Counted from the first letter of the stretch, positions 4,219 through 53,368 are shown. The stretch is DNA of 55,351 bases from Candidatus Bipolaricaulota bacterium (GCA_938083225.1 CALKCH010000016.1:1-55351); one strand, 5' to 3'. Notes: a model not told the origin generated them from the letters alone. Translations and numbers: made by a program.

Positions 4219-4512
4219 TCACCTGTTTTTCTGGGGTTTTAGATCATCGTCCAGAAGGACTCGGCAGCGGGCCTGAACCTGGGCATCGTACGCAGGCTCC
4301 ATGCATTGAAGCTTTTCGAAGGCCAGGCGGGCCCGGGTTTGGGCCGCATTCACGGCCTGCTCCACAGCTGTCGCCAGTTGCGGATAGCCCGCGGCGCGTA
4401 AGCTCTCACTGAGCGCTCGCCAGAAAGCAAGAGGTAGCTCTAACCTCTTCCCGCTCTCTCCCGCCCAGAGCTCCTCGCGACCAGCCTTGAGGACCAACTC
4501 CAACTCGTTCAT
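4219..4512 (-). CDS. hypothetical small protein (97 aa)
   Basis: Open frame with backbone-like high G+C, positioned upstream of rsmA on the same strand. I recognise no motif and see no clear SD sequence before the ATG. Confidence 0.4.
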   Translation of the reverse strand: MNELELVLKAGREELWAGESGKRLELPLAFWRALSESLRAAGYPQLATAVEQAVNAAQTRARLAFEKLQCMEPAYDAQVQARCRVLLDDDLKPQKNR

Positions 4513-4686
4513 GGCAAGGAAAAGCTACCCCGGCGCGTACATAGGCGCAACAGGCTGGGATTTAGCAAGGTTAGCTAGCTGGCCCTGCGGGTGAGTGACG
4601 TCACAGCCAAAACAGCATTTATTCAATTTCAGCACCTTTTCTTGCTTTTAATTCGGTGAGACTTGCCCTCGTCTCTTACCGGTTCC

Positions 4687-5622
4687 TCACCTTACTAGAT
4701 CTAACCCGAAAGATATCCGATGCTGAGATGCGAGGTGAGGATGCATTACCAGCGCGTAGTCAAGTGTAAAGAGACCGAATCTCACCCCGAGACCGAAGCT
4801 TGTCATAAGAGCCCCTTCACCGCGTAGTCCAAATCGGACTGCCAACGCTGAGGCGGGATACCACTCGAGGCCTAACCGCCCCCCCTTACCAGCCGCGAAA
4901 TCCGCTAGCAGGATCCAAGAATCGAGAAGAGTGGCCGAGAGCCCAAACGTAATGGCCAGAGACCAATGTTCCTCATGCCCACTTCTATATTTAGTGGGGA
5001 TCTCCACAACGTTCTCCATGATCATTCCCAGCCCGAAAGCAGTTAGAGGCCCAATTTTAGTTCCCTTGCTCGCAGCTCTATAAAAAAGTGAGAAGTCGAA
5101 GGCCCAACCACTCCCACTACCTGGTTCCAGAGTTCGTACTGTATAGAACTTTGCTTTTATTCCGAACCCAACATCCCGAAGGATGGGAATGCTGTGAAGA
5201 CCTAAATCAGCGAGCGAGACGCCGGCTCCAGCCACCACCGTATAGGTACGGTAAGAGAACGAGCCAGTTACGTTGCCCTGCTCGTCGATCTGGGGAACGT
5301 CTCCAAAGTTAAAGAAATGGAGGCCTAGGCCAAGATGGGGCAAGGTCACAGCTATCTGGCCAGCCAGCCCATACCCAAGCCTCACTTCCCCAGAGGAGAG
5401 AGAGGAGACGCTGGTAAGCCCGGCTAATCCTGCTGGGTTGAAGAAAAGCGCGTTGCTATCGTCTGCAAGACCCACGAATGCTCCGCCCAAAGCCAAAGGT
5501 CGAGCCCCCATGCCCAGGTCCAATACGGCAGCAACGTTGGTGTACGACACCGCAAGGCAAGGAAAAGACAGAGATGAGCCGCCGAGGATCATGATCAACC
5601 ACCAACGTCGTCTCCAAAGCAT
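4687..5622 (-). CDS. PorV/PorQ-like outer-membrane beta-barrel protein
   Basis: A signal-like N-terminus is followed by GMGARPLALGGAFVGLADDSNALFFNPAGLAGL, the opening motif I associate with PorV/PorQ-type barrels. An alternating beta-strand pattern runs throughout. A purine-rich AAGGGGG lies 6 nt before the ATG. The gene starts 11 nt after the stop of the giant gene upstream. It has low G+C like that neighbour. Confidence 0.6.
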   Translation of the reverse strand: MLWRRRWWLIMILGGSSLSFPCLAVSYTNVAAVLDLGMGARPLALGGAFVGLADDSNALFFNPAGLAGLTSVSSLSSGEVRLGYGLAGQIAVTLPHLGLGLHFFNFGDVPQIDEQGNVTGSFSYRTYTVVAGAGVSLADLGLHSIPILRDVGFGIKAKFYTVRTLEPGSGSGWAFDFSLFYRAASKGTKIGPLTAFGLGMIMENVVEIPTKYRSGHEEHWSLAITFGLSATLLDSWILLADFAAGKGGRLGLEWYPASALAVRFGLRGEGALMTSFGLGVRFGLFTLDYALVMHPHLASQHRISFGLDLVR

Positions 5623-5633
5623 TGTCTACCCCC

Positions 5634-8600
5634 TTACCGTTGAATCACCATTTTTCCCTGTCCGATGACCTTGCCGTCGCCAACAAGCACATATATGTAT
5701 GGTCCATTGGCCAGCGGAGTGCCAGTTTGATCCACGGGGCGCCATCGACCAACCGGCGGATAGCGCGTAGCTTTGGGGTCAAGGGATATTTCTGCCACTA
5801 ATCGACCGGTTACGTTGTAGATGAGAAGCTTAGCAGACCTCGTTCCCTCAGGGAGTTGGAACCAGAACACACATCCGTCTTCAGGCACGGGGTTTGGGCC
5901 GTGATTGACCGCAGCCCCGGTCCGAAGGGCTGCGAATATCGCGTGAATCGTATGGTCACTTGTTACGTTGACGAACTTGTAAGTGCCCATACGACCCTTC
6001 ATGACGACCTGGTCAAGCACCGATCTCCCGTCCACGAGTACATCGTGAATCACGTAGCCTTCGTCCGGTGTGATGGTGAACGTTTGATCAGCACCGTGGA
6101 CCACTTTGACCGCTCCCGAAGGGACTATTACCCCACCTTTCCCCGCAGTCGCCGTTATCGTGTGTTGCAGTTCCTCCCCCGTAAACTTGCTGCCGCTCCG
6201 GAGCGTAAGCTCGAACACCCCGTCTCCGTCCTGGTCGACCTCGATTGTGACCCCCCTCTCACCACGAGCAAGAGACTCCCAATCAACCTTATATTGATGG
6301 ATAGCTCCAGCCCTAGTATTGACCTCGCGGCTCTCAAATTGAAGAAAATCATCACCGGTTGCACGAGTTAACACCAAATCGTAGGAACCATCTGAACCCC
6401 CAATAACCACGTATCTGTAGGAAGGATCACGCCCAAAAATGATTACAATTTCATCCAAGTACGCAGAATCAGGAATTTCGTTTCGCACAACACCTTCAAC
6501 CAGTCCAGTAACACGGCCGACCGGATCCCACACTTGAAGTGAAGCGGCGCTCTTGAGCTGAGCGTGAATATACTGACTCAATGTACCAGCAAGAGAAAGA
6601 AGTTCGTCATTTGTCAACGGCTTATAACCACCGGCTTCAAGCGTCTTATCATAGTTCTCCCCATAGTACTCCTTCAGTCTAGGAAGCCACGAGCCCACTT
6701 TAGCCGGATATGTTGGCCCTGTGTTATAGCAGCTGACAGCACCAAGAACGCTGTTAGTCTTATCTAGTCCGTATTGCAAAATCCGAAACGCATCCTTCAC
6801 GTTTGCATAGATGCCTTGCGGAGTGTTCCCGTAGTAATCGTGCTTGTACACCATGTCCGCCACATATGCACCATTGTCGTATGCATGGTAATTTAATAAA
6901 CCGCTTCCCCATCCCTTGTTGCAGCCAGCACACGGGAAGACACCACCATGAATCTGCATGACGCCAACCCCACCACTTTTGAGGTTACCCGCTCGTCCAT
7001 GTTCCTGGTCATAGATACGGTTGTCAAAGCCGTATTGAGCAGCGCCTTCCTGGAGTGCGATGGCCATAATGAGTTCTATTGGAAACTTATTGTCCCTCAG
7101 CTTTTTGAAAGAGTTAGAAGGCTGTCCTTTATGTACACGATCACCGCTACTGTAAAGGGATCGCTCTGCACTCTCGTCAAAGTAGTAATGTAATACCGCG
7201 TTTAGGAAAACTTCACGACGGCGGCTTCGATCTTCTAGGTTCTGAGCTTTGGCAACTAGTTCCCGTTGTTCGATACGCCTCAGTATGTTTTTGTCCACCC
7301 AGCCTGTAAGTTCAGGGGGCCAGGTCGAGTCCCTTACCTCCCACCAGGTCACGCCGTCAGCCGTTCTCATATCATTGTAAGTATCGACGACAAGCATTAC
7401 CCAACCATTAGGGGCAAAAATCATGGCCTGTCTTGGCGATGTGTATTTGTCATAAATCGTTACCCCGGACTCAGTTGAGTGAGCTACCTCCACCCAGAAA
7501 ACTTTTGTAGCTACACGAACAAGCACAAAATTCAAAACGACCGTCTGTCCGGCCTCCACCGTTACCCCAGCCTTTGTCTGTGAAAGGTATCCATCTGCAA
7601 CTGCAGTGATGTTATAGGTGCCGGCCGGGACATTGAACGAAAATTGCCCAGAATCGTCGGTAATCGGACAGTAGGTTAACGGATCAGGTTCCAGCAGAAG
7701 CATCGCCCCACTGACTCCTTTCCCTGTGGAGGCATCAACCACTCGCCCAGTAAGCCGACCTGTCACAGGTGTAGTTCCCCGAAGCTTTACGACATCAAAT
7801 CCCAAGGCCCTTATCCCTGTACCGTCATCTGCAACGTGATTGACGAGCGCGAGAAATCCGCCATCCGCTGTAGGCCCCCCTATTACCACGTTGTATCTGG
7901 CATTCGGCGGATTCCAAGGTTCACAGCGCGTTAGCCATTCCCAAAGAATTGTTCCTTGTGCGTCCGTTTTTATCAGGCATCCAGACCCACATGTACTTAG
8001 CTGGGACTCGACCACCTGCCATACCAACTTTGCGCCGCCAAGAACAAATCCACCATCCTCAGCCTGCATTATGGAAAGAAAAGCATAGCAATACCCTTCA
8101 TGCTGGTTAAAGAAAGATTTTTCCCAAATCACGTTGCCAAGGCTATCCATTCGCAGGAGGAAGGACTCAGTAGCCATTCCCCCTCCATCGCCGAGCCGAT
8201 TAGAGAAAACTGCAGCAATACTCCCACCATCACGCGTCGTCCCCAACGCAGCAGCCCTGATATCACATCTTTTCTCTGGAAAGTACTTTTCCCAAACGAT
8301 CTGTCCCATCGAGTTTATTTTTAACAGATACAACAACTCCCGCCCTTCAGAATGAGTTTTCGCAGCAATGATAAACCCTCCGTCTTTAGCTCTTCGAGCA
8401 GAAAGTGCTTCGGCTACACCTAATCCCGAAAAGGCTCTTTGCCAAATCACCGTTCCCTGCGCATCTGTACCGACTACGAAGATGTTAGAAGAGAAGGGCG
8501 CGCCATACGTCCGAGAATTTCCAATAAGAACGAAGCCACCTCCTGGTCTTTCATCAACATAGATCGGATGATCCTCTTCACTCGTGGAAACGTCAATAAT

Positions 8601-8993
8601 ACGCTGCCACTCTTGGTTACCGCGTTCATCGAGCTTAAGCAAGAAAGCGGATCTTGGTTTCTCAGGAGGGCTTGGAGCGACACCTGTGAGTACGCAGCCG
8701 TCATCAGAGGTGAGGCCGATATACTCTCCCCCTTGATTTGCAAAGGTCCTCTCCCATAGCGTATTCCCGTCTGGGCCGATGGCTAGCAAAAACATCCCCT
8801 GTGCTCGGTTACCTACAATCCGATATGACCCATCTTTCATTTGCTGGTATGACGCAATCAAAGCCGGCTCAGAAAAAACCCTTTGCCACTCTACAGAAGG
8901 AGGCTGCTCCGAAGCAAGGCCACCGGCCGAGGCAATGGCGAACAATAACCCTACAGCTGCCCTTCGAACTTTAGATAGGAAAACTTGGGACAT
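5634..8993 (-). CDS. 1119-aa secreted multidomain protein: beta-propeller repeats, CarboxypepD_reg-like domain, SH3-like plus SLT/lysozyme-like domain, InlB B-repeat-like domain, T9SS/FlgD-Ig-type C-terminal domain
   Basis: I place the start at ATG 8993, because AAGGAGGG lies 8 nt upstream and the track's GTG 9002 falls inside that SD. The signal peptide is MSQVFLSKVRRAAVGLLFAIASAGG. About 7 repeats follow of the form DGGF..(x)..LLK.D..G...W. Next comes TGRLTGRVVDASTGKGVSGA...YNITAVADGY. Then ELIMAIALQEGAAQ...GVGVMQI, which fits an SLT catalytic Glu plus the GLMQ-like motif. Then TITATAGKGGVIVPSGAVKVVHGADQTFTITPDEGYVIHDVLVDG. The C-terminus is GPNPVPEDGCVFWFQLPEGTRSAKLLIYNVTGRLVAEI...GPYIYVLV...KMVIQR. 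Confidence 0.85.
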   Translation of the reverse strand: MSQVFLSKVRRAAVGLLFAIASAGGLASEQPPSVEWQRVFSEPALIASYQQMKDGSYRIVGNRAQGMFLLAIGPDGNTLWERTFANQGGEYIGLTSDDGCVLTGVAPSPPEKPRSAFLLKLDERGNQEWQRIIDVSTSEEDHPIYVDERPGGGFVLIGNSRTYGAPFSSNIFVVGTDAQGTVIWQRAFSGLGVAEALSARRAKDGGFIIAAKTHSEGRELLYLLKINSMGQIVWEKYFPEKRCDIRAAALGTTRDGGSIAAVFSNRLGDGGGMATESFLLRMDSLGNVIWEKSFFNQHEGYCYAFLSIMQAEDGGFVLGGAKLVWQVVESQLSTCGSGCLIKTDAQGTILWEWLTRCEPWNPPNARYNVVIGGPTADGGFLALVNHVADDGTGIRALGFDVVKLRGTTPVTGRLTGRVVDASTGKGVSGAMLLLEPDPLTYCPITDDSGQFSFNVPAGTYNITAVADGYLSQTKAGVTVEAGQTVVLNFVLVRVATKVFWVEVAHSTESGVTIYDKYTSPRQAMIFAPNGWVMLVVDTYNDMRTADGVTWWEVRDSTWPPELTGWVDKNILRRIEQRELVAKAQNLEDRSRRREVFLNAVLHYYFDESAERSLYSSGDRVHKGQPSNSFKKLRDNKFPIELIMAIALQEGAAQYGFDNRIYDQEHGRAGNLKSGGVGVMQIHGGVFPCAGCNKGWGSGLLNYHAYDNGAYVADMVYKHDYYGNTPQGIYANVKDAFRILQYGLDKTNSVLGAVSCYNTGPTYPAKVGSWLPRLKEYYGENYDKTLEAGGYKPLTNDELLSLAGTLSQYIHAQLKSAASLQVWDPVGRVTGLVEGVVRNEIPDSAYLDEIVIIFGRDPSYRYVVIGGSDGSYDLVLTRATGDDFLQFESREVNTRAGAIHQYKVDWESLARGERGVTIEVDQDGDGVFELTLRSGSKFTGEELQHTITATAGKGGVIVPSGAVKVVHGADQTFTITPDEGYVIHDVLVDGRSVLDQVVMKGRMGTYKFVNVTSDHTIHAIFAALRTGAAVNHGPNPVPEDGCVFWFQLPEGTRSAKLLIYNVTGRLVAEISLDPKATRYPPVGRWRPVDQTGTPLANGPYIYVLVGDGKVIGQGKMVIQR

Positions 8994-9350
8994 GTAGATC
9001 ACCCTCCTTTGCGACCAGGGCCGACGTGTGCCGCAATGTGATCAACGAGAGCGCTGACAATACTGCAAGAGCCTAGCACCAACTTGGAACCCGAAGATTT
9101 CTATCCTAGATACGTCAACCGTCTCTTCGGACTCCAGAGGCTCGAACGGAGATATGCCAAGCACCAGCCCGCTCCTTCTTTTGACCTTATACAATATATC
9201 TTTTACTCCTTGCTGTCAAGTTTTGTATGGCATGCCTACCAGAACACAAGGGCCTTTGTCTCACTTATGACAGAGCCAAAAGCTCTTTTCGGCCGAGTTA
9301 AATAACCAACTCAAAAAACACTTATGGCAAAGAAAACCTGGCCAAGGATA

Positions 9351-9378
9351 TGTACAAGCGCCATGAGCCTGGTATAAT
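9351..9378 (+). promoter_or_regulatory. sigma-70-type promoter with extended -10 for the riboswitch-thiamine operon
   Basis: TGTACA (9351-9356), a 16-nt spacer, then TGgTATAAT (-10 hexamer at 9373-9378), located about 10 nt upstream of the riboswitch P1 stem. Confidence 0.5.
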
Positions 9379-9384
9379 GGGTGT

Positions 9385-9550
9385 TGAGGTAACCGGGGGA
9401 GCTCCGAGAGGGGCTGAGAGGAGGTAAAAAGCCTCGACCCCTTGAACCTGATCCGGGTAATGCCGGCGGAGGGAAGGTTACCGCGCTGGCCCCGCTCAGG
9501 TAGGGGCAAACGCTAAGCCCCCTCCCTTGGTTGCCGCCAAGGAGGGGTTT
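9385..9550 (+). promoter_or_regulatory. TPP (THI-box) riboswitch with SD-sequestering expression platform
   Basis: P1 pairs GGTAACC (9388-9394) with GGTTACC (9476-9482). The core is GGGGCTGAGAGG...CCCTTGAACCTGATCCGGGTAATGCCGGCGGAGGGAAG, which matches the THI-element consensus (CUGAGA ... ACCUGAUCCGGGUAAUGCCGGCG.AGGGA). Downstream, CCCCTCCCTTGG (about 9519-9530) can pair with CCAAGGAGGGG (9537-9547), the SD of the first gene. Confidence 0.9.
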
Positions 9551-9554
9551 TCTC

Positions 9555-10184
9555 GTGCCGCGCACGGTGTTGATCCTGGCAGGCGGCGTGGCCTCCCCTG
9601 AGGAGGCTCGCGAGGCTGCTTGTGCCGCGGATTTCGTTCTCGCCGTTGATGGCGGATTCGACCTGGCCCAGAAGGCTGGGTTGACCGTGGACCTCCTCTT
9701 GGGCGACCTGGATTCCCTTTCTTCCCCTCTTCCTCCCACCCTTTCTGTGCGGCGGGTGCCCAGGGAAAAAGACGCCACCGACCTCGAGCTCGCGTTGGAT
9801 CACGCGGTCTCTTTGGGTCCGGAAAAGATCTTGGTCGTGGGAGCTTTTGGTGCCCGCCTCGATCACACCCTGGCCAACGCCAACCTCCTGGAGAAGTATG
9901 ACCTCCCGGTCGTGCTCTTCCACGACCGGGCCCGCGTGTACCTCGTGGTGGACCAGGTGGAGCTCGCAGGTGAACCTGGAGATCTCGTGTCTCTCCTCCC
10001 CCTGACCGCGGAGGTGCGGGGCGTCACCACCTGGGGCCTGCGCTATGCCCTCACCGACGGCGTCCTCCTGCGGGCCTCTACCCGGGGCGTGTCCAACGAA
10101 GTGGTGGCCACGCCGTTCGGCGTCAGCCTGCGCGAGGGAAAGCTCCTCCTCATCCATATGCCCAAAGGAGGTGGGCCATCATGA
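9555..10184 (+). CDS. thiN: thiamine pyrophosphokinase (thiamine diphosphokinase)
   Basis: GTG 9555 lies 7 nt after AAGGAGGGG, and the track start at 9531 would lie in the riboswitch platform. Motifs: ILAGG, AVDGG, GDLDS, KDATD, GAFGARLDH, GLRYAL. Confidence 0.85.
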   Translation: MPRTVLILAGGVASPEEAREAACAADFVLAVDGGFDLAQKAGLTVDLLLGDLDSLSSPLPPTLSVRRVPREKDATDLELALDHAVSLGPEKILVVGAFGARLDHTLANANLLEKYDLPVVLFHDRARVYLVVDQVELAGEPGDLVSLLPLTAEVRGVTTWGLRYALTDGVLLRASTRGVSNEVVATPFGVSLREGKLLLIHMPKGGGPS

Positions 10185-11194
10185 GGAAGTTTTTGGCGGT
10201 GTTGTGGGCAGTCTTTGCTCTGTGGGGAGCGGCTGAGGAACTGGTGGTCTACACCTATGATTCCTTTGTGTCCTGGGGGCCGGCCTTGGCCATCCAGGAG
10301 AAGTTCGAGGCCCTGTTCCCTGGGGTGACCCTTCGCTGGGTGGCGGTGGGCGACTCCTCGGAGATGCTCTCCCGCCTCATCGCCGAGCTCCAGTTGGGCC
10401 TGCCCACTGCTGATGTGTTCCTGGGCCTGGCGGACGTGGAACTCCCTCGCGCTTTAGCCCACAACGTCTTCCAGCCCTACGATCCCCAGCGGATCCCCAA
10501 CCTTGCGGATGTGCCGGCCGAGCTCATCTTCGACCCCACCGGGCACGTCCTCCCCTACGACCACGGCTACGTGACCTTCGTGTACGACTCCGAGCTTTTG
10601 CCCGAGGAGCTCGTGCCCCAAGGCCTGGAGGACCTCTTGCGGCCGGAGCTGCGCGGCAAGATCATCGTCACTGACCCGCGCACCTCTTCTCCAGGCCTTT
10701 CCTTCCTGCTTTGGACGATCGCCCACTTCGGGGAAGGGTGGCCCGATTACTGGCGGAAACTCTTGCCCAACCTGCTGGCCATCACCAAGGGTTGGTCTGA
10801 GGCTTACGACATGTTCCTGGCGGGGGAGGCCCCCATCGTCCTCTCCTACTCCACAGACACAGCTTACTCCTACATCGAATACGGTTCCCTGCGGTATCGG
10901 GCCATCACGCTCGGGGGCGAGGCCTTCCGCCAGGTGGAGGGGATGGGCATCGTGAGGAACACGAAGGAGCTCGAGCTGGCCCACGCCTTCTTGAACCTCG
11001 TCCTTTCCGTAGAGATCCAGGAGCTCATGCCCACCACACAGTGGATGTTCCCGGTGAACGCGCAAGCCAAGCTCCCTCCGGGCTACGAGTACGCGGTGAT
11101 CCCGGAAAAGCCAGTCTTCTTGGAACCGGAGTTGGTGGGCGAAAAGCTCGAGGAGTGGCTGAACCAGTGGCAAAAGCTGTTGATCGGCGGCTGA
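10181..11194 (+). CDS. thiB: thiamine ABC transporter substrate-binding protein
   Basis: ATGA overlap with thiN. Signal peptide MRKFLAVLWAVFALWGA. Type-II periplasmic binding protein of ThiB/TbpA size (337 aa). It lies inside a TPP-riboswitch-controlled operon. Confidence 0.8.
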   Translation: MRKFLAVLWAVFALWGAAEELVVYTYDSFVSWGPALAIQEKFEALFPGVTLRWVAVGDSSEMLSRLIAELQLGLPTADVFLGLADVELPRALAHNVFQPYDPQRIPNLADVPAELIFDPTGHVLPYDHGYVTFVYDSELLPEELVPQGLEDLLRPELRGKIIVTDPRTSSPGLSFLLWTIAHFGEGWPDYWRKLLPNLLAITKGWSEAYDMFLAGEAPIVLSYSTDTAYSYIEYGSLRYRAITLGGEAFRQVEGMGIVRNTKELELAHAFLNLVLSVEIQELMPTTQWMFPVNAQAKLPPGYEYAVIPEKPVFLEPELVGEKLEEWLNQWQKLLIGG

Positions 11195-12855
11195 TCCGGA
11201 GAAGGGGGGCAAGCCTGCTTTGGGCCGGCTTGCCCCTTTTCGTTTTGGCCACGGCCTTCTTTCTTCCCTTGGCCAACGTGCTCCTATTGGGCCTGCGGCT
11301 GGAGGACCAGTGGACCCTGGCCCGGGTGCGCGCGGTCCTCGCTGACCCCTATGTGCGCCACCTCTTCTCCTTCACCGCTTGGCAAGCGTTTCTTTCCACT
11401 CTTCTCAGCTTCGTCCTGGGCTTTCCTTTGGGGTGGTTCCTCACGCGGTACCGTTTCCCGGGAAAGAGCCTGGCCCGGGCTTTCACCCTGGCGCCGTTCG
11501 TGCTCCCGCCCATCACCGTGGCCCTCGGCTTTTTCCTGTTCTTCGGCCACACGGGCTACCTCAACCATGCCCTCCAAAAAATTTTGAGACTCCGGGATCC
11601 GCCGTTGAAGCTGCTTTATTCTCTTTGGGCCATCGTGCTTGCCCATGCCTTTTACAATGCACCTGTGTTTGCCCGCTTCGTCCATGCCGCATGGAGCTCG
11701 CTTGACCCCGCGTTGGAAGAGGCTTGCGCCGTTTTGGGGGTCCGGAGGTTCCGGGCCTTTCTCACCGTGACCCTACCGCTCCTGCTGCCCGCGATCTTCT
11801 CCGCCGCGGCCCTGGTCTTTGTCCTGTGCTTTCTCTCTTTCGCCATCCCCCTGTCGCTGGGCGGGGCCCGCTACGCCACAGTGGAGGTGGGGGTTTATTT
11901 GTACGCGCGGGTGTACGTGGACCTGCCGCGGGCCGCGGCCCTGGGCCTGGTCCAGCTCCTGGTGACCCTGGGTTTGGCCTACCTTTACGTGCGGGGCGGC
12001 GGGCGGTGGTCCGCCCCCCAGGAAAGGCTGCGTCCCCTCCCCACCTTGCCTTTCCCCTCCCGTGCGGCCCATGGGCTTTGGCTCCTTTGGCTTTTGGGAA
12101 GCGCTGTCCTCTTTTTCGGCCCCATCGGTTCCGTGGTCGCCGATTCCTTCACCCGACCTTTGGGCGGCCGCCCCGCGGGCTTGGGCTGGTATCGCTTCAT
12201 CTTTTCCCCCGAGCACAACCCGTTCATCGGCACCTCGCCCTTGGGGAGCGTTCGGGTGAGCTTGGAGGTGGCCGGCTTCTCCACCCTGTTGGCGTTGGCC
12301 TTGGGGCTAGGGGTAAGCGGTGCCTTGCGGGTCCTGCGCTCTAGGGCGCTGGAGGCCCTGCTCATGGCGCCCCTGGCCGTGTCCTCCGTGGTCCTGGGGC
12401 TGGCTCTGCTTCTGGCCTTTCACCGTCCGCCTTTTGTTTATCTCTCCGAGAAGCACGCGCTCATTCTCGCTCATGCTCTTTTGTTCTACCCCTTTGTGGT
12501 GCGGATCGTGCGGCCGATCTGGGAGGGGTTGGCGCCGGGTTGGGTGGAGGCCGCCCGGGTGCTGGGAGCAAGCCGCCTGCGTGCCTTCCTCACCGTGGAG
12601 GCGCCGCTTCTGGCCCAGGCCCTGCTTGTGGCCGGGGCCTTCAGCCTCGCCCTCTCCCTGGGCGAGATGACCGCCGCGGCCATGCTCTCCCGGGGAGAGC
12701 TTGTGACCCTGCCCCTGGCCATCTACCGTTTCCTTTCGGCGCGACGGTTCGGTGCCGCCTCCGCCATGGCCTCCCTCCTCATCCTCATCACCGTGGCCGC
12801 GGTGATCGTTTGGGAATGGCTGGGCGAACGGAGCCTGCGCCATGGCCAAGCTTGA
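11167..12855 (+). CDS. thiP: thiamine ABC transporter permease (two fused TMD halves)
   Basis: About 12 predicted TM segments, with two EAA-like loops ([22 protein letters not shown] and [21 protein letters not shown]). The start is uncertain. I chose GTG 11167 because the track start at 11041 would overlap thiB by about 150 nt. Confidence 0.75.
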
Positions 12856-13873
12856 GGTGGAAAACCTAACGAAGCGCTTTGGCCCCGTGGTGGCCGTGGC
12901 GGGAGTTTCTTTTTCCGTAGACCCCGGGGAAATTCTTGTGCTCCTGGGTCCCTCAGGGTGCGGGAAGACCACGGTTCTTCGGTGCATTGCGGGTTTGGAG
13001 CACCCCGATGCCGGGGATGTACGGTTGGATGGCCGCTCGCTCCTTGGGCTTCCGCCTGAGCGGCGCGGTGTGGGACTGGTGTTCCAGCATTACGCGCTCT
13101 TTCCCCACCTTTCTGTGGCCGCCAACGTGGCCTATGGGCTTCGCCACGGAAGGCTTCGTCTTTCCCGAACGCTGCGGCAAAAGAGGGTGGCGGAGCTTCT
13201 CGCTCTGGTGGGGCTTTCGGGTTATGAGCGGCGCAAGCCCCACGAGCTCTCGGAGGGGCAGAAGCAGCGTGTGGCTCTGGCCCGGGCCCTGGCGGTGGAG
13301 CCCCAGCTGCTTCTCTTGGACGAGCCCCTGTCTGCGTTGGATGCGGCTTTGAGGATGGAGCTACGTCGGGAGCTCCGGCGCATTCTGAAAGAAAGAAACA
13401 CCACCTCTGTGTACGTCACGCACGACCAGACGGAGGCCCTGGCCTTGGCTGATCGGGTGGGGGTGATGCGTGAAGGCAAGCTGGAGCAGGTGGATCGCCC
13501 TGAGGATCTCTATGAGCGGCCGAAGGCCTCGTTTGTGGCGCAATTTTTGGGCCGGGCCAACCTGTGGCCGGCCCGCGTGGTGCGCCTCGAGCCCCCCCGC
13601 GCCTGGGTGGAGGTGGCCGGCGTGACGGTGGAAGCGGAGGTTCTGGCCCCTCCCCAGGGCGAGGAGGCGCTTCTCTTTTTCCGGCCGGAGTGGGTGGAGC
13701 TTGGTCGCGGCCCATTCCGGGCGGAGCTCAGGGAGGCCGAGTACCTGGGCGACCACTGGGAGGCGCGGGGGAGGGTCCAGGGTCTTCCGCTTGTTTTGCA
13801 TACCCCTACCATTCCCGCAAATCCCCTGAATTTCCAGATCAAGCGAGCGTTCCTGCTTCCCACAGGGCACTAG
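12842..13873 (+). CDS. thiQ: ABC transporter ATP-binding protein with C-terminal TOBE-like extension
   Basis: Walker [11 protein letters not shown]-loop, signature [15 protein letters not shown], Walker [13 protein letters not shown], and H-loop VTHDQ. It overlaps the thiP end by 14 nt. Confidence 0.75.
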
Positions 13874-38768: not shown

Positions 38769-38845
38769 TGGTCGGAGCGACCGGATTTGAACCGGTGACC
38801 TCTGGCCCCCCATGCCAGCGCGCTGCCAGGCTGCGCTACGCTCCG
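38769..38845 (-). tRNA. tRNA-Pro (anticodon GGG)
   Basis: The reverse complement folds as CGGAGCG/TA/GCGC-AGCCTGGCA-GCGC/G/CTGGC-ATGGGGG-GCCAG/AGGTC/ACCGG-TTCAAAT-CCGGT/CGCTCCG/A/CCA. All stems are perfect and CCA is encoded. Confidence 0.95.
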
Positions 38846-51888: not shown

Positions 51889-51962
51889 GCGCCCGTAGCT
51901 CAGAAGGATAGAGCGGCGGTTTCCTAAACCGCAGGCCGCAGGTTCGAGTCCTGCCGGGCGCA
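51889..51962 (+). tRNA. tRNA-Arg (anticodon CCU)
   Basis: GCGCCCG/TA/GCTC-AGAAGGATA-GAGC/G/GCGGT-TTCCTAA-ACCGC/AGGCC/GCAGG-TTCGAGT-CCTGC/CGGGCGC/A. All stems are perfect. CCA is not encoded. A T-run follows. Confidence 0.95.
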
Positions 51963-53004: not shown

Positions 53005-53095
53005 GGAGGGGTGGGCGAGCGGCCGAAACCACCTGCCTGGAGAGCAGGTGCACCCCAAAAGGGTGCCGCGGGTTCAAATCCCGCCCCCTCCGCCA
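53005..53095 (+). tRNA. tRNA-Ser (anticodon GGA)
   Basis: Acceptor stem GGAGGGG/CCCCTCC, anticodon arm CCTGC-CTGGAGA-GCAGG, long variable arm (TGCACCCCAAAAGGGTGCC), T arm GCGGG-TTCAAAT-CCCGC, discriminator G, and CCA encoded. Confidence 0.95.
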
Positions 53096-53368
53096 GGCCC
53101 GTGCAGGGTGGGGGGGTAGCGGTCCCCTGCATCCAAAACCCGCTACATGTGGAGCCCATGGGCTCCCCGAGAGGCGGGGTGGCGGAAGCGGCCTGGGAGA
53201 GGCGGCGATGACGGCTGAGCCCCCTGCGACGCAGGCCGGTGAACCCCGCCAGGCCCGGAAGGGAGCAACGGTAAGCCGCCCCCTGCGGGTGATAGGGGAG
53301 CGCTTGGTCCGAGCTGGCGGCCCGGGTGCGCCCGGAGGCCTCAGCCCCGACGGGAGTCCGCACGGGCC
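53096..53368 (+). ncRNA. ffs: signal recognition particle RNA, large (Alu-domain-containing, Bacillus-type)
   Basis: The terminal helix pairs GGCCCGTGC (5') with GCACGGGCC (3'). The Alu-domain-like segment GGTAGCGGTCCCCTG resembles B. subtilis scRNA GGUAGCGGUGCCCUG. The domain IV motif CCGCCAGGCCCGGAAGGGAGCAACGGTAAG is present. TTTGTTTTT follows the 3' helix. Confidence 0.85.

What the first reader, a model, noticed from the sequence alone, without database searches (positions are those of the whole stretch)
5634..8993. 1119-aa secreted protein with an unusual domain chain: propeller, CarboxypepD_reg, SH3-like/SLT muramidase, InlB-B-repeat, sorting tail
Reading the translation, I see a signal peptide followed by about 7 degenerate ~50-aa repeats. 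Each repeat has a DGGF/DGGS core and an LLK.D..G...W turn, resembling SBBP-type beta-propeller blades. Next is a carboxypeptidase-regulatory-like beta-sandwich (TGRVVDASTGKGVSGA...YNITAVADGY). It is followed by an SH3-like stretch and a lytic-transglycosylase/lysozyme-like core (ELIMAIALQEGAAQ ... GVGVMQI). Two further beta-sandwich regions come next, one resembling a divergent InlB B-repeat. The protein ends in a sorting-type C-terminal domain. A surface-exported peptidoglycan-cleaving enzyme with large binding modules could be an antibacterial or predatory lysin rather than a housekeeping autolysin. I do not recognise this combination as a described family.
Basis: partly seen in the sequence, partly recalled or inferred. 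Interest (0 to 1): 0.65.

Follow-up and report, generated by a model that had tools for sequence, protein, structure and literature searches.

The report
Surface-exported cell-wall-cutting enzyme with partner barrel
A Bipolaricaulota bacterium carries a horizontally acquired two-gene unit: a 1119-residue secreted protein built around a peptidoglycan-binding SH3 domain and a divergent lysozyme-like (lytic transglycosylase) domain, followed by a PorV-like outer-membrane barrel that probably holds its sorting tail. It is an uncatalogued variant of a known enzyme type, not a new kind of system.

Summary
It has a signal peptide, a 7-repeat SBBP-like propeller and a CarboxypepD_reg domain (Pfam E 7e-17). 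These are followed by an SH3b-like barrel, a helical GH23/SLT-like domain, a confident beta-sandwich, a weak InlB-B-like domain and a T9SS type-A-like C-terminal domain (CTD).

The proposed catalytic Glu (E649 in ALQEG) is invariant in 145/145 homologue clusters. The other SLT motifs (GxMQ, NIxxG, YNxG) are conserved too. Of 21 homologue fragments, 15 hit Pfam SLT at E <= 1 (best 3e-8).

New points:
- SH3b + SLT + beta-sandwich form a fixed cassette. It is shared by a family of large surface proteins with interchangeable N-terminal modules and C-terminal anchors.
- The next gene encodes a PorV/PorQ-like barrel. In 6 metagenomic loci this gene and the CTD travel together and are the best-conserved parts.
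- The pair has GC3 of about 0.5 against 0.7-0.8 in its neighbours, which suggests horizontal acquisition.
- The host belongs to Bipolaricaulota, an atypical diderm phylum reported to lack LPS genes.

Most likely this is a surface-displayed muralytic enzyme acting on foreign peptidoglycan. Activity and target are untested. I class it as a new variant of a known kind, of moderate interest.

The parts
8913..8993 (-). Sec-type signal peptide (aa 1-27, predicted cleavage after GLA); no lipobox
   Evidence: Read from the translation; start codon supported by GGAGG at 9007-9003
7779..8897 (-). Seven-repeat SBBP-like beta-propeller (aa 33-405)
   Evidence: Seven repeats (six ending in a Trp turn) delimited; NCBIfam SBBP lipoprotein E 7e-7; 41-58% identical in L003/L011-L013
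7521..7754 (-). CarboxypepD_reg beta-sandwich (aa 414-491)
   Evidence: Pfam PF13620 E 7.1e-17, above cutoff; PDB carboxypeptidase D domain E 0.008
7293..7499 (-). SH3b-like barrel (aa 499-567), probable peptidoglycan-binding module
   Evidence: AF2 strands with pLDDT >90; Foldseek matches to SH3b domains of NlpC2, LytB, lysostaphin/ALE-1 and phage endolysins, prob up to 0.99-1.0; SH3_3 in 13/21 and SH3_4 in 5/21 homologues
6576..7268 (-). Divergent GH23/SLT-type lysozyme-like catalytic domain (aa 576-806), with long insertions between the motifs
   Evidence: All-helical AF2 model; SLT motifs conserved in 146 sequences; Pfam SLT in 15/21 homologues at E <= 1; Foldseek matches to SLT/LT_GEWL, g-type lysozyme and MltF, all weak; sub-threshold PDB sequence hits to EmtA, goose lysozyme and EtgA
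7047..7049 (-). Codon of the predicted catalytic Glu649 (ALQEG)
   Evidence: Codon translates to E; invariant in 145/145 homologues
6174..6575 (-). Conserved beta-sandwich with no library model (aa 807-940), carrying a DxDxDG loop (DQDGDG, aa 920-925); third member of the cassette
   Evidence: pLDDT about 95; about 124-133 of 145 homologues align to this stretch of the query; no Pfam hit in 24 members; occurs alone before a C-terminal TM helix in an archaeal protein
5934..6164 (-). Weak InlB-B-repeat-like Ig-type domain (aa 944-1020)
   Evidence: Pfam Flg_new_2 E 1.5e-4 to 8e-4, below cutoff; pLDDT about 35-65; found only in the closest orthologue, L003/P0001
5637..5897 (-). T9SS type-A-like C-terminal sorting domain (aa 1033-1119), ending GKMVIQR
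   Evidence: TIGR04183 E 0.05 and FlgD_ig E 1e-3 in the query; 5/5 homologue tails hit TIGR04183 over the full model, one above cutoff, and some also hit the CTD part of PorU; top Foldseek hit is PorU 6za2, E 1.9e-6; 58-82% identical across 6 loci
4687..5622 (-). PorV/PorQ-family-like outer-membrane barrel gene (311 aa), 11 nt downstream of the enzyme gene; probable cognate shuttle or anchor
   Evidence: NCBIfam PorV_fam E 2.6e-18, below cutoff; orthologues reach E 1e-22 with full-length coverage; directly downstream of the CTD-bearing homologue in 6 loci
9191..9219 (-). Promoter-like site TTGACA-17-TATTGT about 200 nt upstream of the start codon
   Evidence: Consensus scan only; the number of sites in the region is no higher than in shuffles
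4513..9384 (.). Approximate extent of the low-GC two-gene island
   Evidence: GC 0.47-0.56 inside against 0.60-0.65 outside; GC3 0.49/0.54 against 0.68-0.84 in neighbours; flanking genes are not syntenic in related loci

Best explanation
**What it is.** The gene encodes a Sec-exported, modular peptidoglycan glycosidase. Its working core is a fixed three-part cassette:
- an SH3b-type cell-wall-binding barrel;
- a divergent GH23/SLT-type lysozyme-like domain, with Glu649 as the single acid catalyst;
- a probably Ca-binding beta-sandwich that acts as a surface-proximal pedestal.

In front of the cassette sit a 7-bladed propeller and a CarboxypepD_reg sandwich. These would serve as reach or binding modules.

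**How it is displayed.** Behind the cassette sits a T9SS type-A-like C-terminal domain. I infer that this tail is recognised by the PorV/PorQ-like FadL-type barrel encoded 11 nt downstream. That would carry the enzyme to, or hold it on, the outer ('toga') membrane of its Bipolaricaulota host, facing outward.

**What it does.** Displayed outside its own wall, the enzyme would cut the glycan strands of foreign peptidoglycan. The target could be neighbouring bacteria (antagonism) or dead-cell sacculi (scavenging of muropeptides).

**Origin.** The two genes move together as a horizontally transferred unit.

**Shown versus inferred.** Shown: the domain identities, motif conservation, gene linkage, compositional anomaly and host phylum. 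Inferred: enzymatic activity, lytic transglycosylase versus hydrolase chemistry, binding of the tail to the barrel, surface exposure, and the target.
For: **Catalytic domain.**
- E649 is invariant in 145/145 homologues. The next residue is S or T in 124 (the SLT 'ES' motif).
- G677/M679/Q680 (GxMQ), N731..D734 (NIKDG) and Y756-N757 (YNxG) are conserved.
- Pfam SLT hits 15/21 homologue fragments at E <= 1 (best 3.2e-8), and P0006 scores above the cutoff.
- The AF2 model has pLDDT 91.7 and pTM 0.93.
- Foldseek returns SH3b domains of peptidoglycan hydrolases, and SLT/LT_GEWL, g-type lysozyme and MltF.
- Sub-threshold PDB sequence hits are to EmtA, goose lysozyme and EtgA, all at the Glu-to-GxMQ segment.

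**Peptidoglycan as the substrate.**
- The SH3b domain is a fixed part of the cassette.
- A paralogue in L051 carries a PG_binding_1 domain about 70 residues upstream of the region that aligns to the query's SLT-like domain.
- An M23 peptidase gene lies directly upstream in L011-L013.
- P0008 carries an Amidase_6 domain.

**Export and anchoring.**
- The protein has a signal peptide and a T9SS type-A-like tail.
- The PorV-family barrel gene is directly downstream in the window and in 6 loci.
- The tail (58-82% identity) and the barrel (45-69%) are the best-conserved parts, while the catalytic region drops to about 31%.
- Published precedent exists for cargo genes linked to cognate FadL-type shuttle genes that bind the CTD (PMC12618676, PMC9143113).

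**Outward action and mobility.**
- GC3 is 0.49/0.54 against 0.68-0.84 in neighbours.
- Flanking genes are not syntenic in related loci.
- Relatives carry other surface anchors: C-terminal TM helices, PxKF 'rightmost' domains and a dockerin.

**Host.** GatB is 82% identical to that of a Bipolaricaulaceae MAG. Bipolaricaulota were inferred from a genome to be atypical diderms without LPS genes, and a toga was seen in the first isolate (PMC6092417; bioRxiv 10.1101/2025.11.21.689855).
Against: - No enzymatic or localisation data exist.
- The query's own SLT and CTD hits are below the curated thresholds. The assignments rest on transitive homology and on motifs.
- No Foldseek match of the catalytic model reaches E <= 0.001.
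- The query has Gly instead of the usual Ser/Thr after the catalytic Glu, and Ser instead of the common Asp at position 673. Activity could therefore be altered.
- T9SS is regarded as confined to Bacteroidota and the FCB group (abstracts). Whether this host has a translocon for the tail could not be checked.
- In P. gingivalis, type-A cargo is anchored by linkage to anionic LPS, yet no LPS genes were found in the Ran1 Acetothermia genome.
- A periplasmic role on the host's own wall is not excluded.
Confidence: 0.55

Rival explanations
1. It is a housekeeping or morphogenetic autolysin. The enzyme stays in the periplasm, possibly tethered under the outer membrane through the PorV-like barrel. 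There it remodels the host's own peptidoglycan, for example during growth, division or toga formation.
For: Most characterised family-1 lytic transglycosylases are periplasmic housekeeping enzymes (established knowledge). The catalytic motifs are intact. The host has a peptidoglycan-containing diderm-like envelope with polar outer-membrane extensions (PMC6092417; bioRxiv 10.1101/2025.11.21.689855).
Against: The unit is compositionally foreign (GC3 0.49/0.54 against 0.68-0.84) and its flanks are not syntenic, which is unusual for a core wall enzyme. The T9SS type-A-like tail and PorV-like partner point to the cell surface. The N-terminal modules and anchors vary freely among relatives. It is not a lipoprotein like MltA-E.
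Confidence: 0.2
2. It is a GH23 enzyme for another glycan. The lysozyme-like domain would cleave chitin or another beta-1,4 GlcNAc-containing polymer for nutrition, as the GH23 chitinase of Ralstonia does.
For: The Ralstonia GH23 chitinase (3w6d, 3w6e, 3w6b) appears among the Foldseek PDB matches. Propeller, CarboxypepD_reg and Ig-like modules are common in polysaccharide-degrading surface enzymes.
Against: Those matches are weak (E >= 1.4, prob <= 0.16). The cassette always carries an SH3b domain. Relatives carry or neighbour PG_binding_1, M23 and Amidase_6 modules, all linked to peptidoglycan. The motif set is that of SLT family 1.
Confidence: 0.08
3. It is a non-catalytic surface adhesin or S-layer-associated protein. 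The SLT-like fold would only bind glycan strands, and the protein would mediate attachment to other cells.
For: The protein is large and has many beta-rich binding modules. The query departs from the family consensus next to the catalytic Glu (Gly for Ser/Thr) and at several near-invariant second-shell positions. NCBIfam gives weak S-layer glycoprotein hits over the CarboxypepD_reg region.
Against: The catalytic Glu and all 17 invariant positions of the family alignment are retained in the query. Invariance of the Glu in 145/145 clusters argues for selection on catalysis.
Confidence: 0.1
4. It is a phage-derived lysin: a prophage tail-associated or virion muralytic protein left in the chromosome.
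For: SLT/LT_GEWL and SH3b matches in the viral structure library. A terminase-like gene, a DNA methylase and an aspartyl-protease-like gene lie within about 5 kb of the homologue in L051. The composition is foreign.
Against: No relative was found in 2.9 million viral contigs. There are no phage genes around the window copy. A Sec signal peptide, a T9SS-like tail and an outer-membrane barrel partner are features of cellular secretion.
Confidence: 0.05

Closest known systems
Family-1 lytic transglycosylases / Pfam SLT (PF01464), CAZy GH23 (E. coli Slt70, MltE/EmtA, EtgA; goose-type lysozymes)
   Same: A helical lysozyme-like fold. A single invariant Glu at the end of a helix, usually followed by Ser/Thr. 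The G-x-M-Q, N-I-x-x-G and Y-N-x-G motifs occur in the same order. Several homologues reach Pfam SLT significance.
   Different: The query itself is below the Pfam cutoff (E 0.0085). There are long insertions between the Glu helix and GxMQ and between GxMQ and the NI motif. An extra, strongly conserved YYxNTxQGIYANIKDG block is present. The domain is fused on both sides to an SH3b domain and an unmodelled beta-sandwich. It is not a lipoprotein, and it carries a surface-sorting tail.
SH3b-containing cell-wall hydrolases (lysostaphin/ALE-1, LytB, NlpC/P60 enzymes, phage endolysins)
   Same: An SH3b-type barrel placed next to a muralytic catalytic domain. Foldseek prob is 0.9-1.0 for the barrel.
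   Different: In those enzymes the partner is usually an amidase or peptidase, and the proteins are small. Here the partner is a GH23 glycosidase domain inside an 1119-aa multi-module surface protein.
Type IX secretion cargo with cognate FadL-type shuttle (type-A CTD with PorV; type-B CTD with PorP/SprF-like partners encoded next to the cargo gene)
   Same: A C-terminal beta-sandwich matching the type-A sorting-domain model, and an adjacent gene for a PorV/PorQ-family barrel. Cargo-partner gene linkage follows the pattern described for type-B cargo in Flavobacterium (PMC12618676, PMC9143113).
   Different: The host is a Bipolaricaulota, outside the phyla in which T9SS is described, and no LPS genes were found in the Ran1 Acetothermia genome. 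Here the linkage is between a type-A-like tail and a PorV-like partner, whereas in Bacteroidota one PorV serves all type-A cargo. Both proteins score below the curated cutoffs. No translocon, motor or sortase gene is present in the 55-kb window.
Horizontally transferred antibacterial lysozymes (my own knowledge: GH25 muramidase transfers across domains, Metcalf et al. 2014)
   Same: A muralytic enzyme gene with foreign composition and patchy distribution. Some relatives have archaeal-type C-terminal anchors, though these are only weak hints.
   Different: A different glycosidase family and a much larger architecture. Antibacterial activity is not shown, and archaeal ownership of any SLT-bearing member is not proven.

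Membership tests
SLT / GH23 family-1 lytic transglycosylase domain (PF01464) | Significant match to the family profile | tested here: inconclusive
   The query scores E 0.0085 and 16.1 bits, below the 21.3-bit cutoff, and only over the NI-to-YNxG part. By contrast, 15/21 homologue fragments hit SLT at E <= 1 (best 3.2e-8). P0006 scores 31.5 bits and is homologous to the query at E 1.4e-72.
SLT / GH23 family-1 lytic transglycosylase domain (PF01464) | Catalytic Glu in the 'E-S' motif, conserved across relatives | tested here: met
   E649 is present in 145/145 homologues. The next residue is S in 96 and T in 28; the query has G, as do 4 homologues.
SLT / GH23 family-1 lytic transglycosylase domain (PF01464) | Downstream motifs G-L/I/V-M-Q, N-I-x-x-G and A/x-Y-N-x-G in order | tested here: met
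   G677 is present in 144/145, M679 in 115 and Q680 in 145. N731 is present in 138/143 and D734 in 142. Y756 is present in 131/139 and N757 in 135.
SLT / GH23 family-1 lytic transglycosylase domain (PF01464) | Lysozyme-like alpha-helical fold | tested here: inconclusive
   The model is a confident all-helical domain. Matches to SLT/LT_GEWL proteins, g-type lysozyme, MltF and PRD1 P7 recur, but all have E >= 0.015 and none reaches E <= 0.001.
SLT / GH23 family-1 lytic transglycosylase domain (PF01464) | Cleavage of the MurNAc-GlcNAc bond, forming 1,6-anhydroMurNAc | not testable with these tools
   This needs enzyme assays and muropeptide mass spectrometry.
T9SS type-A cargo (TIGR04183 sorting domain) | C-terminal domain matching the type-A CTD model at the extreme C-terminus | tested here: inconclusive
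   The query scores E 0.05 and 13.6 bits against a cutoff of 23, aligned over model positions 3-72/72. Homologue tails score 15-25 bits and one is above the cutoff. The top structural match is PorU, E 1.9e-6.
T9SS type-A cargo (TIGR04183 sorting domain) | Host encodes the T9SS translocon, motor and attachment complex (SprA/Sov, PorK/L/M/N, PorU/Z) | not tested
   None of these was identified among the window genes scanned.
T9SS type-A cargo (TIGR04183 sorting domain) | Anchoring to anionic LPS after CTD removal | not testable with these tools
   No LPS genes were found in the Acetothermia genome Ran1 (PMC6092417), so this step is unlikely as described for P. gingivalis.
PorV/PorQ family (NF033709) | Match to the family profile above the curated cutoff | tested here: not met
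   The window protein scores E 2.6e-18 and 66.7 bits against a cutoff of 90. Orthologues score 64-81 bits with coverage of positions 3-325/326. It is a clear relative but not a member by NCBI's threshold.
SBBP-type beta-propeller | Seven tandem blades matching the repeat profile | tested here: inconclusive
   Seven sequence repeats were found. The only profile hit is weak, NF047494 at E 7e-7. No Pfam repeat hit was found, and no structure was predicted for this part.
CarboxypepD_reg (PF13620) | Profile match above the gathering score | tested here: met
   E 7.1e-17 and 62 bits against a cutoff of 32.3, covering positions 2-81/82.
Divergent InlB B-repeat (PF18998) | Profile match above the gathering score | tested here: not met
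   19.8-22.1 bits against a cutoff of 23.6, covering only positions 1-47/73. The model confidence is low.

The most novel reading that the evidence does not exclude
The enzyme gene, the PorV-like barrel gene and, in relatives, a third small putative barrel gene may form a portable, self-sufficient surface-display module. It would export and anchor a CTD-tagged cargo without the canonical multi-protein type IX machinery and without LPS. It operates in a deep-branching toga-bearing phylum and spreads by horizontal transfer with a cell-wall-degrading weapon as its payload. In that case T9SS-style CTD/FadL-barrel recognition would be older or more modular than the Bacteroidota system.
Probability: 0.15. 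Interest if true: 0.7.

Novelty: new variant of a known kind. Interest (0 to 1): 0.42.

Why it matters
Three reasons, if the reading is right.

1. It defines an uncatalogued, widespread family: 145 clusters at 50% identity. The members are large surface proteins built on a fixed SH3b + GH23 + beta-sandwich cassette. They come mostly from uncultivated groundwater, sediment and hot-spring organisms. This gives a handle on how such organisms attack or recycle bacterial cell walls.

2. It places a type-IX-style sorting tail, with a dedicated PorV-like partner gene, in Bipolaricaulota. This phylum is deep-branching, bears a toga, and has no LPS genes in its first closed genome. T9SS has not been described there. 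That makes the question of how proteins reach the surface of such envelopes directly testable.

3. A thermophile-derived muralytic domain may have practical use as a lysin.

The enzyme class itself is well known, so the interest is moderate.

Tried and rejected
**Searches that found nothing useful.**
- The word-indexed protein search with the central region and with the 21-sequence profile found nothing. The family was reached only through the exhaustive representative search.
- Exact-sequence look-ups of the window's enzyme and its neighbour found no record.
- Sequence search of the PDB with the whole protein, the catalytic fragment or the profiles gave no significant hit for the central region. 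It returned only sub-threshold GH23 hits mixed with spurious G-alpha hits.
- The viral-contig scan found no relative, so a phage origin was set aside.
- No flanking direct or inverted repeats, integrase or tRNA mark the island borders.
- The promoter and terminator scan was no better than shuffles.
- Literature searches found no description of this cassette, or of T9SS in Bipolaricaulota.

**Analyses that stayed inconclusive.**
- Foldseek on the two-domain model gave no match at E <= 0.001.
It was repeated without them.
- I tried to show that some relatives are archaeal through PGF-/PEF-CTERM models. This gave only weak hits (E 0.18-0.5), so it is reported as a hint only.
- Neighbour genes of the low-GC loci gave bacterial signals, such as a PilM-PilN fusion, but no firm taxonomy.

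**Start codon.** The GTG start at 9002 (1122 aa) was rejected in favour of the ATG at 8993 on Shine-Dalgarno spacing.

Full report
**1. Is it there?**

Yes. A single ORF runs on the minus strand from 8993 to the stop codon at 5634-5636 and encodes 1119 aa. The ORF list extends it to a GTG at 9002. However, a GGAGG at 9007-9003 lies 9 nt before the ATG at 8993 and directly abuts the GTG.

The N-terminus is a typical Sec signal peptide without a lipobox cysteine. The closest relative of the central region scores E 1.8e-121 in an exhaustive search of 1.84 billion representative proteins. This is a real gene.

**2. Domain by domain**

*Residues 33-405.* These hold seven repeats of 44-61 aa. Six end in a G..[ILE]W[EQ][RKW] turn (W80, 129, 184, 234, 290, 351). 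A leading 'VEWQR' (W36) could close the last blade. The only profile support is a weak hit to an SBBP-propeller lipoprotein model (E 7e-7). No structure was predicted for this part.

*Residues 414-491.* This is a clear CarboxypepD_reg domain (E 7e-17).

*Residues 495-815.* The query has no library hit above threshold here. AlphaFold2, run with a 21-sequence alignment, gave a very confident model (pLDDT 91.7, pTM 0.93). It has a small beta-barrel (aa 499-567) followed by an all-helical domain (aa 576-806).

- Foldseek against the PDB and the viral structure library matched the barrel to SH3b cell-wall-binding domains. These included NlpC2, LytB, lysostaphin/ALE-1 and many phage endolysins, at prob 0.9-1.0.
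- It matched the helical part to SLT/LT_GEWL proteins, salmon g-type lysozyme, MltF, PRD1 P7 and a GH23 chitinase.
- None of these matches reached E <= 0.001.

*Residues 807-940.* This is a very confident beta-sandwich (pLDDT about 95). It carries a DxDxDG loop (DQDGDG, aa 920-925). No Pfam model matches it in any of 24 family members.

*Residues 944-1025.* This stretch gives a sub-threshold InlB-B-repeat hit and a low-confidence model.

*Residues 1033-1119.* These match the T9SS type-A sorting-domain model weakly in the query (E 0.05).

- The tails of five homologues all hit that model end to end, and one scores above the curated cutoff. Three of them also hit the CTD part of the PorU model.
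- The best structural match of the C-terminal model is P. gingivalis PorU (E 1.9e-6). That alignment spans several Ig-like domains and is not specific to the tail.

**3. Is the centre lysozyme-like, and is the Glu conserved?**

The exhaustive search gave 145 representative clusters. In a MAFFT alignment of all of them:

- The Glu of ALQEG (E649) is present in 145/145.
- The next residue is Ser in 96 and Thr in 28. This is the 'ES' motif of family-1 lytic transglycosylases. The query and its two closest relatives have Gly.
- Next come N658 (144/145), G677-x-M679-Q680 (Q in 145/145), a strongly conserved YYxNTxQGIYANIKDG block containing the SLT 'N-I-x-x-G' motif, and Y756-N757 (YNxG).

Scanning 21 homologue fragments individually against Pfam gave SLT in 15 at E <= 1 (best 3.2e-8). 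It also gave SH3_3 in 13, SH3_4 in 5 and Lysozyme_like in 3. One full-length homologue (P0006) passes the SLT gathering score, and it aligns to the query over aa 497-941 at E 1.4e-72.

Profile searches of PDB sequences gave only sub-threshold hits. The non-spurious ones were all GH23 enzymes aligned at the Glu-to-GxMQ segment: EmtA/MltE, goose and black-swan lysozymes, and EtgA.

Together this establishes a divergent GH23/SLT-type domain with its catalytic residue under strong constraint.

**4. What the family looks like**

Coverage of the query by its relatives shows that the shared unit is aa 495-942, that is SH3b + SLT-like + beta-sandwich. Everything else is interchangeable.

- N-terminal parts include WD40 or PD40 propellers, NosD/beta-helix, LRR, Amidase_6 and VWA/Y_Y_Y.
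- In one paralogue (L051), a PG_binding_1 domain lies about 70 residues upstream of the region that aligns to the query's SLT-like domain.
- C-terminal ends include TM helices with basic tails (11/145), a 'PxKF/rightmost' domain (NF038114, E 5e-16), a dockerin, or the T9SS-like tail (4/145).
- The beta-sandwich also occurs on its own, just before the C-terminal TM helix of an 866-aa protein. That protein is on a Ca. Methanodesulfokora contig and has no SH3/SLT part. This suggests a surface-proximal pedestal role for the sandwich.

Relatives come from 61 metagenomic contigs, and none from viral contigs. Many have low GC and come from the 0.1-um fraction of Hainich groundwater, judging by the contig names. 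One has a fused PilM-PilN neighbour. Their taxonomy was not resolved.

**5. Surroundings**

*The neighbour gene.* Eleven bases downstream lies a 311-aa protein with a signal peptide. It matches the PorV/PorQ family (E 2.6e-18, below NCBI's cutoff).

*Linkage.* In six metagenomic loci (L003, L011, L012, L013, L015, L051) a homologue bearing the same tail is followed directly by an orthologue of this barrel.

*Conservation.* In those loci the tail (58-82% identity) and the barrel (45-69%) are the best-conserved parts. The catalytic region falls to about 31%.

*Synteny.* The flanking genes of the window (rsmA, a 97-aa ORF, and thiamine genes behind a TPP riboswitch) are not found in those loci.

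*Composition.* The two genes have GC3 of 0.49 and 0.54, against 0.68-0.84 for their neighbours. The low-GC stretch spans roughly 4.5-9.4 kb. This looks like a horizontally acquired two-gene unit. No repeats or integrase mark its borders.

*Related loci.* In L011-L013 an M23 peptidase gene lies directly upstream. In L003, L011 and L013 an about 220-aa putative small barrel (ending ...RF, with no Pfam hit) directly follows the PorV-like gene; in L015 homologues lie nearby, one immediately after it and one about 2.2 kb downstream. This third gene is absent from the window.

**6. Host**

GatB from the window is 82% identical to that of a Bipolaricaulaceae MAG. All of the close named hits are Bipolaricaulota or Acetothermia.

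The first closed genome of this phylum suggested an atypical, possibly simple diderm envelope with no LPS genes (PMC6092417). The first isolate shows an outer membrane extended into a toga with an S-layer (bioRxiv 10.1101/2025.11.21.689855).

T9SS is described as specific to Bacteroidota and the FCB group (abstracts). I found no paper linking it to Bipolaricaulota.

**7. Most likely mechanism**

*Shown:*
- a secreted protein;
- an SH3b domain next to a GH23 domain with an invariant Glu;
- a type-A-like tail;
- a linked PorV-like barrel.

*Inferred:*
- After Sec export, the tail is bound by the cognate FadL-type barrel. This follows the way PorV binds type-A tails, and the way PorP/SprF-like proteins, encoded next to their cargo, bind type-B tails (PMC12618676, PMC9143113).
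- The enzyme ends up on the outer face of the toga membrane.
- There the SH3b domain holds peptidoglycan, and Glu649 cleaves the glycan strand.

Because the enzyme would be outside the cell's own wall, its substrate would be foreign. It could be living neighbours or necromass.

I cannot tell lytic transglycosylase from hydrolase chemistry. I also cannot tell whether the host has a translocon for the tail. I put 0.55 on the full reading, and about 0.8 on the narrower statement 'secreted peptidoglycan-cleaving GH23 enzyme'.

**8. Comparison and novelty**

It works like a family-1 lytic transglycosylase or g-type lysozyme joined to an SH3b targeting domain, and like a T9SS cargo with a private shuttle.

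As for membership, the motif tests for SLT are met. The query's own profile scores for SLT, the type-A CTD and PorV_fam are all below the curated cutoffs, and the rest of a T9SS is untested.

What is not in the libraries searched:
- the fixed cassette with its unmodelled beta-sandwich;
- the size and spread of the family;
- the tail-plus-barrel pairing in an LPS-lacking phylum outside the FCB group.

I rate it a new variant of a known kind, with interest 0.42.

The most novel reading not excluded is a portable, minimal CTD/barrel display module that works without canonical T9SS. I give it probability about 0.15.

Noticed in passing
L011 7024-7689; L013 6920-7585; L003 3777-4610; L015 5605-6345 and 3235-4173: A third conserved gene follows the PorV-like gene in related loci. 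It encodes an about 220-aa protein with a signal peptide, ending ...Y[IL]RF. It may be a small outer-membrane barrel, but it has no Pfam hit. It is absent from the window.
   Followed up: partly
L011 688-2247; L013 651-2189; L012 66-1595: A 512-519-aa protein with a Peptidase_M23 domain lies directly upstream of the SLT-cassette gene. This suggests a small cell-wall-degrading gene cluster in those organisms.
   Followed up: partly
L001 7928-10528 (Ca. Methanodesulfokora washburnensis contig): An archaeal 866-aa surface protein carries only the family's beta-sandwich (profile E 2.6e-57), immediately before a C-terminal TM helix. It has no SH3 or SLT part. A cassette-bearing fragment (L004) comes from the same hot-spring metagenome and has similar GC.
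   Followed up: partly
window 9385-9492 (+): A TPP riboswitch (75 bits) precedes thiamine pyrophosphokinase and a solute-binding/permease/ATPase uptake operon at 9531-13873. It is divergent from the enzyme gene.
   Followed up: no
window 53005-53365 and 51889-51962 (+), 38772-38845 (-): A bacterial large-type SRP RNA lies next to a tRNA, and there are two further tRNAs. The window is an ordinary chromosomal region with housekeeping genes (GatB, AspRS, SufB, an AddA-like helicase-nuclease).
   Followed up: no
P0020, P0046 and many other family members (C-termini): Many low-GC family members end in the NCBIfam 'PxKF/rightmost' domain (NF038114, E 5e-16). Others end in TM helices preceded by PGF- or PEF-like motifs. 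These are weak hints of archaeosortase-type signals.
   Followed up: partly
L051 11801-16365: Within about 5 kb of the cassette homologue and its barrel gene lie a retroviral-type aspartyl-protease-like ORF, a terminase large-subunit-like gene and a DNA methylase. This may be a mobile-element neighbourhood.
   Followed up: no
window 4219-4512 (-): A 97-aa ORF lies between the PorV-like gene and rsmA. It has host-like GC (0.605), no family hit, and no counterpart in the related loci.
   Followed up: partly
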